Of a stretch of DNA of 64,000 nt, positions 37,851-51,548 are shown one piece after another. The DNA is from Eledone cirrhosa (Eukaryota): NCBI GenBank assembly GCA_964016885.1, contig OZ024748.1:58218001-58282000 (forward strand), read 5' to 3'. The notes beneath the pieces were generated by a model, which was given only the letters and a program-made list of their open reading frames with translations, did not search any database and was not told the origin of the DNA. Each line of letters begins with the position of its first letter. The stretch's first letter is position 1. A program made the position numbers and the translations under genes.

Positions 37851-39899
37851 CGCCCTGTTTATTTACGTCGTGTTAGGTTCGGATACTGTTGGAAGTGATA
37901 ATGTACACGGTTAATAGATTTAACATCAGCAGTGATATCTTACTTTCACCATAGAAGTATACCAGGCTACACTCTGATTTAACAGCACGCGTGGTGAGAT
38001 GGGTATAAGTGTCTGAATATAAGTGTCTACATGCATGCTTATTTTGAGTTGAACCGGAAAAAAAGAACATCGTAACAGATTTACTGTGAAATGGAATCAT
38101 GATATGAGGATATTATAATATTTATAATCCTTTACACACCACCTTCATGACACTGTTCCTATCTCATCTCCCGATGAAAGATGGGTGACTGATTTGCATT
38201 CAATTAGTTGCAGATTTCACAAAGGTCATCAGGATTTGAGACTCTACATACATAACAGAAACGTAATATTCTGTTGGAAATTAGAAAACATTTCTCAAAT
38301 ATGATTTGCTGTTGTAAACGTTATATAAATACAGCAATTCACATAAGCAAGTACTTTCATTAAGCAACATAGTCATAATATTTAATTTAGCTAATATTAT
38401 CATATACAACATCTGAAGATATACGATATATGTGAAGGATTAAACGGATATCAGTAATACGAAGTTCTCGAATTTCTACATCATTGAATATATTCAGTAG
38501 TGTTAGGAAAATTATCTTCATTGCCTGGAGAATACGTATTAGCCGATGAATTAGCGCAGTAGAAAAACCTTACTGCATTGTGACCCAGGAAATATATATC
38601 TGAATATGTATAAATGACTGTATACATAGAGGCATATATATATATATATATATATATATATATATATATATATATATAGAGAGAGAGAGAGAGAGAGAGA
38701 GAGAGAGAGAGAGAGAGAGAGAGAGAGACTCTCTCGCTCTATTGCAGGCGTCTAAATAACCTATAGAATATATCTCTTGAATTCGTTAGTCTATAAAATG
38801 TATGAGCTAGTGTTAGATAAGTCACGAACACCAAGGAGACATTTAAATAATTAGGGTGTATTTTAATCCCTGGCAAGATGATCAATAAATAAGAAAATGA
38901 GAATGAGAATATTAGCAATATTAAGTATCAAGATAGCGACGGCTACAATTGATTTTATTCAATTTCAAATTCCCTCGATATTGTCTGAAATTATTATCAA
39001 TAATTTCGCAGTGATTTAGCTATTCTGTTAATTGCTTCTGGGGAATGAATACCATAAACTCTTCTATGGATTTCCAAATATTCATGCAGTTATCTAATCG
39101 TCTCCACTTGTGGCATAATAAATCTCGATAGGCATTCTTACATCAGTAGAATTAGATTACCAAAGGAATAATAATAGTAGGATTAACAACCCTTGTTAAA
39201 ATCGATGTTGACAGACTATTCTCTAAATATTTAACGTTTTCAGAAACAATAAATGATTGAAAAAAAAATATTTGTTTATTCATTTATCCGTTTATTATTT
39301 CACTTGTTTCGCCTATTGTCTTGATTGTGTTTCTTATATTGTATAATCAAGTGCAGATGCAAACTAATATAACTTGCACTGAAATAACGTATGTAACCAA
39401 AACATCATAACGACATGTATTTAGGTGTGGAAGTTTCTATTCTTAAAGTGAATGCAAATTCATTGTAGCAAACTTTACTTTGATCAAGCTGGTTGATATA
39501 TGGCTGCGTCGATTTCTGTTAAATCTACACAATAAAGATGATAAATATTCATGGTTGAGGTTACAAACAATTCAATGATCTATACACAAACAGTTCATTG
39601 AATTTAATACAGTTATCTTCAGCAGGCTGTTGAGAATATTGTTTAGTATAAGTCGTAGAATCTAACGTGTATACATAGACATAAAACAACTAATCAATAT
39701 TGTTACCATATTAGCTACATATCTATATGTGTAACATTCTTTTAGTGAAATCACTGCATAGGAATGACATATTAAAGGGTCTGTCATCCTGAAATTAATA
39801 TTAAAATGCTTCTAGAATGTGCGCCTATCTTTCTAATTATATATATATATAAGTTAAAACAATAAAATAAAAAAATCAAGTCATTAGAGATATACTTCA

Positions 39900-40037
39900 C
39901 TGCTTTACGATCGTTTCTAGATGATGATAATACGTTGTAGCTATACTCGGAAATTGATCTATGTAAGGTTATTTACAAACTATCAGATAAAGAGAATATT
40001 TACTTACATGCATATCACCAGCTGTTTTCAAAAGCAA
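39900..40037 (-). ncRNA. Hammerhead, U3-A8 variant with extended stem II (left arm)
   Basis: ttgctt-TTGAAAA-[~107 nt]-GAAAC-GATC-GTA|aagcag. Confidence 0.68.
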
Positions 40038-40038
40038 T

Positions 40039-40170
40039 CTTTTGAAAACAGCTGGTGATATGCATGTAAGTAAATATTCTCTTTATCTGATAGTTTGTAA
40101 ATAACCTTACATAAATCAATTTCTGAGTATAGCTACAATGTATTATCATCATCTAGAAACGATCGTAAAG
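40039..40170 (+). ncRNA. Hammerhead, U3-A8 variant with extended stem II (right arm)
   Basis: ctt-TTGAAAA (40042-40048)-long hairpin-GAAAC-GATC-GTA|aag (40156-40170). Confidence 0.62.
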
Positions 40171-40388
40171 CAGTGAAGTATATCTCTAATGACTTGATTT
40201 TTTATTTCATTGTTTTAACTTATATCATGACTCTGTTTTCCTTTTAATGTTTTATTGTTTTCCGAGATTTATCTTAACCTAAAACATTTTCAACATATGG
40301 ATTACATCGAGTTCTTCATGCTGGATAGACCCCACAACTTACTGTGGATACCTCTGCGTATATATATATATATATATATATATATATT

Positions 40389-40558
40389 AAAATAACAGAT
40401 TAAAGTTTAAGGAAAGCATCGCTGCTTTCACCCTTAACGAGATCTTCTGAAACTTGAGTTTCAGAAGATCTCGTTATAGGTGAACGCGGCGATTCTTTGC
40501 TTAAACTTTAATCTGTTATTTATATATATTGTTATACTTGGGGAGGGTCATATTATTG
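40389..40558 (+). mobile_element. Older fold-back insert in (TA)n (apex 40455-40456), degenerate HHR
   Basis: ~65-bp imperfect arms; CAGAAGA-hairpin-GAAA next to the apex; tail gttatacttgggagggtcatatt also found inverted at ~57239-57262. Confidence 0.7.
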
Positions 40559-47947: not shown

Positions 47948-48730
47948 ATATATATATATAGAGATATAGAGATATATAAATATATATATATATATATATA
48001 TATATATATATATATATATATATATATATATATAGATATATATATATATAGATATATATATAGATATATAGATATATATATATATAGATATATATAGATA
48101 TATATATATAGATATATATATGTATATATATAGATATAGATATATATATATAGATATAGATATATATATAGATATAGATATAGTTATAGATATATATATA
48201 TAGATAGATATATACATAGATATATATATATAGATATATATAGATATAGATATATATATAGTTATATATATAGATATATATATATATATATATATATAGA
48301 GAGAGAGAGAGATATATATATAGATATATATATAGAGATATATATAGATATATATAGATATAGATATATATATAGATATATATATAGATATATATATAGA
48401 TATATATATAGATATATATATAGATATATATATATATATATATAGATATATATAGATATATATATATAGATATATATATATATATAGATATATATATATA
48501 TATAGATATATATATATATATAGATATATATATAGATATATATATAGATATATATATAGATATATATATATATATAGATATATATATATATAGATATATA
48601 GATATATAGATATATAGATATATAGATATAGATATATATATAGATATATATATAGATATAGATATATAGATATATATATAGATATATATATAGATATATA
48701 TATAGATATATATATAGATATATATATATA

Positions 48731-49078
48731 TTAGAAAGTGAGGTTTTTTTTACAAAATGAAAAATAACCGAGGTGTCCTACACGTGTGAAATTATAAAGA
48801 AAAAGAGATGAAATTGAAAATGCAACTGGAGTCTTATTTCTTTTAAAAATATATATATTTATTTGGTTCCTTTACCGGTTTCGCAGTTCTTCTGCTTTTC
48901 AAAAGGTGAGTTGAGATGGAGGGTCTGCGGTTTTTCTCGAAAATCCACAGACCCTCCATCTCAACTCACCTTTTGAAAAGCAGAAGAACTGCGAAACCGG
49001 TAAAGGAACCAAATAAATATATATATTTTTAAAAGAAATAAGACTCCAGTTGCATTTTCGATTTCATCTCTTTTTCTA
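48731..49078 (-). mobile_element. Fold-back PLE-type insert: ~140-bp arms, apex 48937-48938
   Basis: 48798-48936 is the inverted copy of 48939-49077; the left arm has an extra tail to 48731. Confidence 0.9.
48969..49006 (+). ncRNA. Minimal hammerhead, U3-A8 variant (identical mirror copy on minus strand at 48869-48906)
   Basis: cctt-TTGAAAA-gcag-aagaa-ctgc-GAAA-CCGG-TA|aagg; AATAAA at 49012. Confidence 0.82.
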
Positions 49079-49407
49079 GATATATATATAGATATATATA
49101 TATATATATATATAGATATAGATATAGATATAGATATATATAGATATATATATATATATATATATATATATATAGATATATAGATATATATAGATATAGA
49201 TATAGATATAGATATATATAGATATATATATATATATATATATATATATATATAGATATATAGATATATATAGATATAGATATATATAGATATATATAGA
49301 TATATATATAGATATATATATATATACATATATATATATATATATATATATATATATATATATATATATATATATATATATATATATATATATATATATA
49401 TATATAT

Positions 49408-50000
49408 GAGAAACGTAAAATAAGAAAATTATAAAATTAACTTACTTACTAAAATATCACTTCCAACTAATTAGTTTCTATAATGGAGTAAATATATTTT
49501 CAGAAGAATATATAAAAAGCATTCCGTCGTCAGGGAAGTCTATTTTCATCCAAGTTACCAGGCAAAGCGAGGACTCTGGAAAATTATTAAAAAATAATTC
49601 AGTGTATAGGAAATAGCAAAGCGTGGACTGAATTCCTAGCCATTGAGAAAATCACTGCCTCCACGTCTGTGGCAAATTCAAAAAGAATCAATCACGTGAC
49701 ATCGAGGCCAATCAGTGGAAAGTGGTTTGCTAATAAGACAGCGGCCTGCCCACTACCATAGCAGCAGTTATGGCCAATATTGCTCGACAAATAATTTGGA
49801 GATAATTATAAAGAATTTATATCTAGTAACATATATATACATACAGATGCATATCAATGCTAGCAAATATATAGGTTTTGTCTTAGTAACATTGAATCAC
49901 AATGTTACTAAGACAAAATGTTACTAAGACAAAACCTATATATTTGCTAGCATTGATATGCATCTGTATGTATATATATGTTACTAGATATAAATTCTTT
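49408..50000 (-). mobile_element. PLE-type insert with fold-back 5' end (apex 49895-49899)
   Basis: 49810-49894 inverted at 49900-50000 with a 16-bp tandem duplication aatgttactaagacaa next to the apex; HHR near the other end. Confidence 0.85.
49459..49539 (-). ncRNA. Type-I hammerhead, canonical core
   Basis: acttcc-CTGACGA-[48 nt]-GAAACT-AATT-AGTT|ggaagt: 6-bp stem I, palindromic loop III. Confidence 0.78.
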
Positions 50001-51548
50001 ATATATATATATATAGATATAGATATATATAGATATATATAGATATAGATAGATATAGATATATATAGATATATATAGATATATATATATAGATAGATAG
50101 ATAGATATAGATATATATATAGATAGATATAGATATATATATAGATAGATATAGATATATATATAGATAGATATAGATATATATATAGATAGATATAGAT
50201 ATATATAGATAGATATAGATAATATATAGATAGATATAGATCATATATAGATATATATAGATATAGATATAGATATATATATATATATATATATATAGAT
50301 ATATATATATAGATAGATATAGATATATATATATAGATATAAATATATATATAGATATATAGATATAGATATATATAGATATATATATATATATATATAT
50401 ATATATATATATATATATATATAGATATCTATATATATATATCTATATATATTTATATATAGATATATATATAGATATATATATATAGATATCGATATAT
50501 AGATATATATATATATATATATATATAGATATATATATATATATATAGATATATATATATAGATATATATATATAGATATATATATATAGATATATATAT
50601 ATAAATGTATATATATATATAGATATAGATATAGATATATATAGATATAGATATAGATATATATAGATATATATAGATATAGATAGATATAGATATATAT
50701 AGATATAGATAGATATAGATAGATATATATAGATATATATATATAGATATAGATAGATATAGATATATATAGATATAGATAGATATAGATAGATATATAT
50801 ATAGATATATATATAGATATATATAGATATAGATAGATATATATAGATATATATAGATAGATATATATATATATATATAGGTATATATAGATAGATATAG
50901 ATATAGATATATATAGATATAGATATATATAGATATAGATATAGATATAGATAGATATAGATATAGATATAGATATATATATAGATATAGATATATATAT
51001 AGATATATATATATATAGATATAGATATATATATAGATATAGATATATATATATATATATATATATATATATATATAGATATAGATATATATACATATAT
51101 ATATAGATATATATATAGATATATATATATATATAGAGAGAGAGAGATGGAGATAGAGATAGAGTGAGAGAGAGAGATAGAGATAGAGATAGAGTGAGAG
51201 AGAGAGTGAGAGAGAGAGAGAGAGAGATATAGAGAGAGGGATATATATATATATAGAGAGATATATAGAGAGAGAGGGATATATATATAGATATATATAT
51301 AGAGAGAGAGAGATATATATATAGATATATATATATATATAGAGAGATATATATATAGAGATATATATATAGAGAGAGAGATGTATATAGAGAGAGAGAT
51401 ATATATATATATAGAGATATATATATAGAGATATATAGAGAGATATAGAGAGATATATATATAGAGAGATATAGAGAGAGATATATAGAGAGATATAAAT
51501 AGAGAGATATATAGAGATATATACAGATATATATATATAGAAAGAGAA

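What the first reader, a model, noticed from the sequence alone, without database searches (positions are those of the whole stretch)
39838..50003. The shorter arm ends at an internal TATA: mechanistic signature
Seen: where the short arm meets the microsatellite, the long arm has an internal TATA-like word at the matching position: taactTATAtc (~40221), ttattTATATATA (40521), tcttTATAc (47800), aatTATAaag (48793), aatTATAaag (49807), ccTATt (9962). The 22654 insert is an exception. Inference: (TA)n is self-complementary, so both ends of a cut present the same primer. Either the second end primes at an internal UAUA on a second RNA, or the first cDNA snaps back, copies itself and anneals to the target at TATA. 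Unlike L1 twin priming, this duplicates the segment rather than merely inverting it.
Basis: partly seen in the sequence, partly recalled or inferred. Interest (0 to 1): 0.75.

Follow-up and report, generated by a model that had tools for sequence, protein, structure and literature searches.

The report
Penelope jumping genes prime twice
These lopsided palindromes in TA repeats are back-to-back end pieces of Penelope-like jumping genes, and their short arm ends at a fixed TA-rich spot that is likely a second start site for copying, so each insertion was probably written from both ends of the DNA cut off one RNA rather than by a copy folding back on itself.

Summary
The inserts are 3' ends of at least seven families of Penelope-like elements (PLEs); four show Hydra-clade protein motifs. 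The inverted-arm-plus-one-sided-tail shape is published. The TA signal is real. In 600 kb of arbitrary stretches, 18 of 37 short-arm ends have at least 4 nt of TA-alternating match to the target (2.3 expected), but only 9 of 37 show literal TATA. The end is one fixed site per family, not any TATA, and in 19 of 37 it lies 5-15 nt before an RCTC..GAGY hairpin (0.4 expected). Each family has two fixed ends, proximal P and distal D, and 73 of 75 classifiable pairs use one of each. In 18 of 73 the tail-less arm reaches further 5' than the tailed arm, which snap-back cannot make. Apices cluster at a likely capped RNA start. Best reading: programmed twin priming on one RNA. Two first-reader points fail: 40521 is target remnant, and L1 twin priming also duplicates. 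Earlier scan notes reached much of this on other DNA, and two of them supplied the hairpin and cap leads that I tested here.

The parts
39852..40036 (-). Family B tail-less (P) arm, inverted; abuts (TA)n 39838-39851
   Evidence: L034: P arm to -185, D arm to -181
40037..40358 (+). Family B tailed (D) arm; P site at 40220|40221 (TATAT), tail 40221-40358 leading into the 5' UTR and ORF start in longer copies
   Evidence: (L043 runs on into SLKNIPIP)
40388..40520 (.). Family C palindrome with both arms tail-less (the one P+P pair found); extra G at 40456 at the apex
40521..40529 (.). (TA)4 target remnant, not family C sequence; followed at 40530-40557 by the arm of another repeat family and at 40558-40713 by a SINE-like repeat
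47466..47633 (-). Family A tail-less (P) arm, inverted
47634..47946 (+). Family A tailed (D) arm; apex at the family hot spot about 30 nt after a TATAAAA box; P site at 47799|47800 (TATA), 147-nt tail. Longer copies carry an RT + C-terminal GIY-YIG ORF
48731..48937 (-). Family D tailed (D) arm; tail 48731-48796, P site TATA at 48793-48796; internal (TA)5 near 48850 is passed over
48938..49078 (+). Family D tail-less (P) arm
49408..49999 (.). Family E insert, from an apparently non-coding ~543-nt tandem unit with two fixed ends 118 nt apart. The right arm ends at the CTT|TATA site (matching 49807); the left arm runs on to the other site at 49408
9903..10041 (.). Family F insert: inverted tail-less arm reaches -54 while the tailed arm stops at -10, an L1-like twin-priming product with about 10 nt duplicated
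   Evidence: L155
22607..22811 (.). Family G insert: short arm ends off-site at -33; tailed arm ends at the fixed D site
   Evidence: L185; full-length relative in L225

Best explanation
These inserts are head-to-head 3'-end stubs of Penelope-like retrotransposons with two fixed ends per family, likely made by programmed twin priming on one RNA. If the distal one stalls at or before the proximal primer, the product is an L1-like inversion with a deletion or tiny duplication. If it displaces through, both run off at the capped start of the pLTR transcript and give the near-perfect palindrome; (5) the two cDNA 3' ends are joined by microhomology-type repair with short fillers. Shown: element identity, two fixed ends, TA match, hairpin association, one-of-each pairing, arm-length classes. 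Inferred: RT start at these sites, one RNA, displacement, cap run-off, repair pathway.
For: Identity: ORFs with RT motifs (MG..DSAE, YRDD), DKT, RWR, CxCX5C and C-terminal GIY-YIG-like motifs in A, C, G; SLKNIPIP ORF start after the tail in B, C, G, matching the Hydra clade definition. Two fixed ends: A 10 at P and 29 at D of 42 TA-abutting arms; F 37 and 44 of 93; D 17 and 32 of 56. TA match beats chance and is also present at D in C, E, F, G (TAT or TATA). TATA is not sufficient: of 19 family-D partner arms, 17 end within -2..+5 of P, 2 at or near D, none at the (TA)5 tract at -62. Hairpin at +5..+15 in 19 of 37 random inserts from 9 clusters, against 0.43 expected. In C the ends split between two ATA/ATAT registers before the hairpin (12 at +3, 16 at +7). 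Pairing: 73 D+P, 1 P+P and 1 D+D of 75 classifiable among 102 direct pairs; both D+D cases seen have their host flanks inverted too (L085, L216). P arm further 5' in 18 of 73 (15 by >30 nt; 1.74 kb in L215). D arm stops in the tail in 5 and within 20 nt of P in 4. P-only insertions exist (L044, L089, L030, L209). Arms share subfamily variants in F (43 of 72 within, 287 of 3,445 between). Apex hot spots lie about 30 nt after TATA-box-like words in A, B, D, F, and 12 of 17 non-templated bases before the F start are G. In vitro, a Poseidon PLE nicks and extends both strands and starts RT at two internal sites that bound the tail (PMC11167929).
Against: All evidence is from finished genomic copies; there is no biochemistry for Hydra elements. 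48 of 73 pairs have arms ending within 10 nt of each other, against 39.6 by within-family shuffling (P=0.0004), and 7 of those lie off the hot spots, so snap-back or gene conversion may make part of this class. Displacement through an occupied primer site is assumed. One P+P pair (window C) and 8 symmetric hits (about 4 inserts, most seen from both strands) in the random set need another route. 10 of 37 random ends have <=1 nt of match. B's distal end has no TA match, and the distal continuation is unknown for A and D. Only 8 of 12 inspected sites have RCTC and 5 of 12 a GAGY partner. The extra-G signal is weak in C (4 of 9) and A (7 of 27), and some F junctions are counted from both strands. 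Shared variants show no excess in C (1 of 6 vs 12 of 87) and could reflect subfamily age or conversion. PMC11167929 found RT starting at sites NOT homologous to the cut DNA in Poseidon. Family samples are the best 30 of 459-1,573 candidates and are biased to arms covering the query; 27 of 102 pairs were unclassifiable and E was left out of the pair count.
Confidence: 0.65

Rival explanations
1. Two RNAs on an asymmetric dimer: each subunit primes its own RNA, with geometry forcing one nick to use the distal and the other the proximal site.
For: The Poseidon protein is predicted to be a dimer (PMC11167929). No strand displacement is needed, and it explains full duplication and run-off at a shared transcript start.
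Against: Needs an extra asymmetry rule to give 73 of 75 mixed pairs; in vitro both strands used the same start sites. D arms stopping in the tail or just past P (9 of 73) suggest collision on one RNA. No clearly mixed-subfamily pair among the F pairs listed.
Confidence: 0.17
2. Snap-back: the tail-primed cDNA folds back, copies itself and anneals to the second target end at the TA word (the reader's second option; related to the self-priming idea in PMC3846280).
For: 48 of 73 pairs are near-symmetric, a modest excess over shuffling; some apices sit on natural hairpins (F -36; E -83); arms share variants.
Against: Cannot give a tail-less arm that reaches beyond the tailed arm (18 of 73; only 7 the other way), tailed arms that never reach P (5), or P-only insertions. 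It does not explain why stronger TA tracts are passed over or why a hairpin follows the end. It can be at most a minority route.
Confidence: 0.1
3. The tail-less end is made after or during insertion: the element's nuclease cuts its own TA-rich site, or the tail is lost by slippage or recombination between the internal TA word and the flanking (TA)n.
For: PMC8557442 attributes the tail to EN-mediated resolution; the P word resembles the target.
Against: Loss after insertion predicts many D+D, some P+P and use of the longest TA tract; observed 73 of 75 mixed and none at the (TA)5. Cutting at P still needs rejoining to (TA)n and does not explain D arms that stop short of P.
Confidence: 0.06
4. 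Assembly or sequencing fold-back artefact.
For: Two D+D cases include inverted host flanks and may be such artefacts or later rearrangements.
Against: Arms differ by 3-11% in the window; ends are family-fixed and asymmetric; short-read contigs show (TA)n joined at 40221-40225 in three runs of one sample (no contig spans the whole insert, and the sample may be the assembly's own).
Confidence: 0.02

Closest known systems
Hydra clade of C-terminal EN+ Penelope-like elements (Craig et al. 2021, PMC8557442; sections 11 and 15, passages, supplement search showing Hydra-1_Obim)
   Same: Short single ORF, RT then GIY-YIG, DKT, RWK-like, CxCX5C, CxxC/CxH motifs; (TA)n target; 5'-truncated inverted copy with a tail on one end described for EN+ PLEs.
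   Different: Tails here are 65-147 nt (37-120 nt in most random inserts), against the 30-40 bp described. The paper leaves the origin of inverted structures open and ascribes the tail to EN resolution. Hammerheads here are not detected by Rfam at gathering score.
Poseidon PAc in vitro mechanism (Frangieh et al. 2024, PMC11167929; parts 1-3 of 4 read: main text and methods)
   Same: Both strands nicked and extended; two internal RT start sites bounding the tail, near the ORF start; AT-rich target.
   Different: PAc start sites are reported non-homologous to the cut DNA and lie in an AC-rich stem-loop; here most show 2-5 nt of TA match just 5' of an RCTC..GAGY hairpin. That paper does not address one-of-each use or inverted products.
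L1 twin priming (as described in 10.1101/2024.08.27.596794, passages)
   Same: Both nicks prime on the same RNA; head-to-head arms joined by microcomplementarity; deletion (66%) or duplication (17%) at the junction.
   Different: In L1 the second site is spurious and variable and duplications are short (median 22 bp). Here it is fixed and structure-marked, there is no poly(A) priming, and duplication out to a common 5' end is the main class (48 of 73).
Head-to-head Penelope insertions of Adineta vaga (Arkhipova et al. 2013, PMC3846280; passages and Discussion)
   Same: Inverted pLTR, palindrome at the junction, optional tail on one arm.
   Different: Explained there by self-priming on an antisense template; the arm-length classes here argue for two primings on sense RNA.

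Membership tests
EN+ Penelope-like elements | Single ORF with RT and GIY-YIG endonuclease | tested here: met
   By motif inspection: A 499-aa fragment, G in three frames, C in two. Pfam gave no significant hit. 65 homologues at 27-43% identity, 2 annotated PF00078. Not obtained for D, E, F.
EN+ Penelope-like elements | pLTR followed by tail and ORF start (partial tandem) | tested here: met
   Copies of B, C, G run past the distal end into the ORF N-terminus; C full unit with pLTR at both ends in L227.
EN+ Penelope-like elements | Inverted 5'-truncated copy with tail on one end | tested here: met
   73 of 75 classifiable pairs.
Hydra clade | DKT, RWK, CxCX5C linker, CxxC and CxH around E/N, no CCHH | tested here: met
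   DKT in C and G; RWR in C and G (variant of RWK); CxCX5C and CxxC/CxH in A, C, G, against the definition. Absence of CCHH judged by eye.
Hydra clade | Insertion into (TA)n | tested here: met
   e.g. 42 of 47 A arms, 93 of 101 F arms and 56 of 62 D arms abut (TA)n.
Hydra clade | Canonical hammerhead ribozyme in the pLTR | tested here: inconclusive
   No Rfam hit at gathering score in 9 loci. CUGANGA..GAAAC cores by eye in A, E, G; degenerate in B, D, F; none matched in C.
Hydra clade | Phylogenetic grouping with Hydra RTs | not tested
   No tree built; resemblance to Hydra-1_Obim seen by eye in the supplement excerpt.
L1-type twin priming | Both nicks prime one RNA; inversion with deletion or duplication at the junction | tested here: inconclusive
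   Product classes match; a single RNA is inferred, not shown.
L1-type twin priming | Poly(A) first primer and variable, spurious internal second site | tested here: not met
   Both sites are fixed per family and there is no poly(A) tail.
MITE / DNA-transposon foldback element | Fixed symmetric terminal inverted repeats | tested here: not met
   Ends are asymmetric, apices vary from +66 to -1916, and copies extend into RT ORFs.

The most novel reading that the evidence does not exclude
Hydra-clade PLEs integrate by default through programmed twin priming: a duplicated RNA hairpin marks two start windows, UA pairing with the (TA)n primer sets the register much as a telomerase template aligns to its primer, each window is used once per RNA, and both cDNAs run off the capped 5' end. 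This one rule would explain the one-sided tail, the inverted repeats and the microsatellite bias of PLEs, and it may have left on the order of 10^5 palindromes in this genome (37 in 0.6 Mb, extrapolated).
Probability: 0.5. Interest if true: 0.7.

Novelty: new variant of a known kind. Interest (0 to 1): 0.5.

Why it matters
PMC8557442 names the origin of the tandem/inverted structures and the microsatellite bias as the open problem of PLE transposition, and the one in vitro study found (PMC11167929) did not resolve it. The copy statistics turn it into sharp tests: which word and hairpin set each start, whether one RNA serves both arms, and whether apices are transcript starts. I found no paper stating this model in five PLE-directed searches of the open-access library (plus 82); subscription papers and Repbase notes were not searchable. 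The elements and their shape are already known, and this scan's earlier unreviewed notes reached similar readings.

Tried and rejected
Rfam on the window gave only microsatellite and miRNA noise below gathering score; on 9 non-palindromic loci it gave 0 hits. Pfam found no significant family in 7 ORF fragments. Hammerhead cleavage as the apex was rejected for F: arms run past the predicted cut site into stem II (by eye). The family-blind caller mistakes family D's internal (TA)5 for a target run, so its 9 events with 10-nt match are artefacts; they are in the 'ALL' row, which I do not use, and none is in the random set. The F cap test failed because the reference copy had private variants and was redone. 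Family E was left out of pair counts because its tandem unit maps ambiguously. De-duplication dropped 6 of 108 pairs, two of them (L025, L030) probably distinct, so 73 is conservative (79 before). Several C 'solo P' copies at -113 are a subfamily with different upstream sequence, and G 'solos' at -249 are alignment breaks in a simple repeat; I did not count them. No RNA holder was listed. The original L1 twin-priming paper was not held. The supplement of PMC8557442 was only term-searched; those of the bioRxiv papers are closed, and those of PMC11167929 were not opened (Figs S1-S2 may bear on start-site homology). The retrozyme preprint 10.64898/2026.07.22.740005 and PMC2377424 were seen as passages only. 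The organism was not pursued; it looks octopus-like.
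Full report
What is there. The window is (TA)n-rich animal DNA from a 3.0-Gb assembly. After masking microsatellites, self-comparison shows palindromes at 39847-40225, 40393-40518, 47468-47797, 48798-49077, 49816-49994 and 22613-22695, plus the small insert at 9903-10041. The cited TATA words are at the cited places. I searched the genome with one arm of each insert and called the families A (47466), B (39852), C (40388), D (48731), E (49408), F (9903) and G (22607). 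They have 459, 1,573, 1,254, 563, 464, 1,497 and 956 first-look candidates, of which 40 were scored and 30 fetched per family.

Identity. [quoted passage not shown] Near-full copies of G and C show DKT, RWR, YRDD, CxCX5C and CxxC/CxH. B, C and G copies that run past the tail enter an ORF start with S/TKNIP. These are the features given for the Hydra clade of Penelope-like elements, which targets (TA)n (PMC8557442); its supplement lists an octopus member, Hydra-1_Obim. Pfam does not recognise the fragments. E is an apparently non-coding ~543-nt tandem unit with the same footprint. No ORF was obtained for D or F. The inverted 5'-truncated copy with a tail on one end is published.

Is the TATA real? 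In families, ends abutting (TA)n are bimodal at a proximal site P and a distal site D, 65-147 nt apart. To avoid search bias I took 60 stretches of 10 kb and called asymmetric palindromes without family knowledge: 37 inserts in 24 clusters. The long arm matched the TA target at the short-arm end by >=3 nt in 24 and by >=4 nt in 18 (null 4.6 and 2.3); literal TATA was present in 9 (null 3.1). So the signature is a 2-5 nt alternating-TA microhomology, often ATAT or TAT. Two corrections follow. At 40521, family C has no TATA; the word is leftover target and both arms are tail-less. And TA match also occurs at the distal end in C, E, F and G, though not in B.

TATA is not enough. Family D has a (TA)5 tract 62 nt before P, yet 17 of 19 partner arms end at P and none at the tract. 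Following an earlier scan note (e1-9862288), I tested for a hairpin after the end. RCTC..GAGY starts 5-15 nt downstream in 19 of 37 random inserts (null 0.43), from 9 clusters, and in 13 of 47 clusters outside A-G (null 0.7). Of 12 A-G sites with known downstream sequence, 8 have RCTC at +6..+13 and 5 a GAGY partner; two others show look-alike stems with changed pairs, by eye. In C the ends split between two UA registers before the hairpin. Structure therefore likely sets a window and UA pairing sets the register.

Which mechanism? Among 102 de-duplicated direct head-to-head pairs of A-D, F and G, 75 have both ends at canonical sites: 73 D+P, 1 P+P (the window's C insert) and 1 D+D; 27 could not be classified. 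The D+D case, and a second one among long loci, have their host flanks inverted too. Of the 73, 48 have both arms ending within 10 nt of each other, 18 have the tail-less arm reaching further 5' (L215, outside the 73, by 1.74 kb) and 7 the reverse. In 5 the tailed arm stops inside the tail and in 4 within 20 nt of P. Insertions with only a P arm exist. Snap-back of the tail-primed cDNA cannot give these classes, so P is likely an independent priming site. Free use of two sites on two RNAs would give at most half mixed pairs; 73 of 75 points to each site being used once, as on one RNA. F arms share subfamily variants within an insertion (43 of 72 vs 287 of 3,445 between), though C shows no such excess and conversion could contribute.

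Why near-perfect palindromes? Apices cluster: A -170..-162, D -149..-146, F -57..-50, C -66..-61, B about -183; shuffling within families already gives 39.6 of the 48 symmetric pairs. TATA-box-like words lie about 30 nt upstream in A, B, D and F. Following e1-10329066, I looked for a cap-derived G: 12 of 17 non-templated bases before the F start are G, against 25% expected among non-T bases, but only 4 of 9 in C and 7 of 27 in A. That a non-templated G marks a reverse-transcribed cap is recalled knowledge, not from a call. Both cDNAs likely run off the 5' end of a pLTR-initiated transcript. The residual excess of symmetric pairs (P=0.0004; 7 off hot spots) leaves room for broken RNAs or some snap-back. 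Junctions show 1-19 nt overlaps or short, often templated fillers.

Comparison. A Poseidon PLE nicks and extends both strands and starts RT at two sites bounding the tail, reported as non-homologous to the target (PMC11167929). L1 twin priming uses one RNA and gives deletions (66%) or short duplications (17%). The present case works like L1 twin priming, but with two fixed, structure-marked sites and long duplication as the main outcome. I found no paper with this model; earlier unreviewed scan notes hold much of it.

Verdict. The elements and their shape are known. The junction statistics favour programmed twin priming on one RNA (0.65) over two RNAs (0.17) or snap-back (0.10). Interest 0.5.

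Noticed in passing
window 27401-28147 (+): ORF fragment with RT-like motifs (RYID, FLDI) inside a GC-rich, C-skewed block at 26000-30000; likely a PLE of another clade.
   Followed up: no
window 11611-12068: Older (82%) inverted pair made partly of the SINE-like repeat also at 40558-40713 and 60147-60460.
   Followed up: no
L154 (G000:C1:36631500-36636500): Family E forms ~543-nt head-to-tail arrays with a CUGACGA..GAAAC core and the same two fixed ends: a retrozyme-like non-autonomous unit apparently moved by PLE machinery.
   Followed up: partly
L217:2174-5413 (-), L218:3293-6949 (+): ORFs of 1,080 and 1,219 aa, apparently with Asn-rich inserts, lying between inverted G or B arms; they recall the N-rich Penelope ORFs of A. 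vaga (PMC3846280). No Pfam hit for L218.
   Followed up: no
L012, L020, L027 apices: The SINE-like repeat sits at the apex of 3 of about 11 family-A palindromes, which suggests capture during joining or targeting of the cruciform.
   Followed up: no
L085, L216: Tail-on-both-arms palindromes whose host flanks are also inverted: later fold-back rearrangement or assembly artefact.
   Followed up: partly
window 42990-43242 and 51549-51817: Two 89%-identical fragments of another repeat, by eye RTE-like LINE 3' region (label recalled).
   Followed up: no
L225:604-4200, L227:3688-7501: Near-full-length Hydra-type elements of families G and C with frameshifts or stops.
   Followed up: partly
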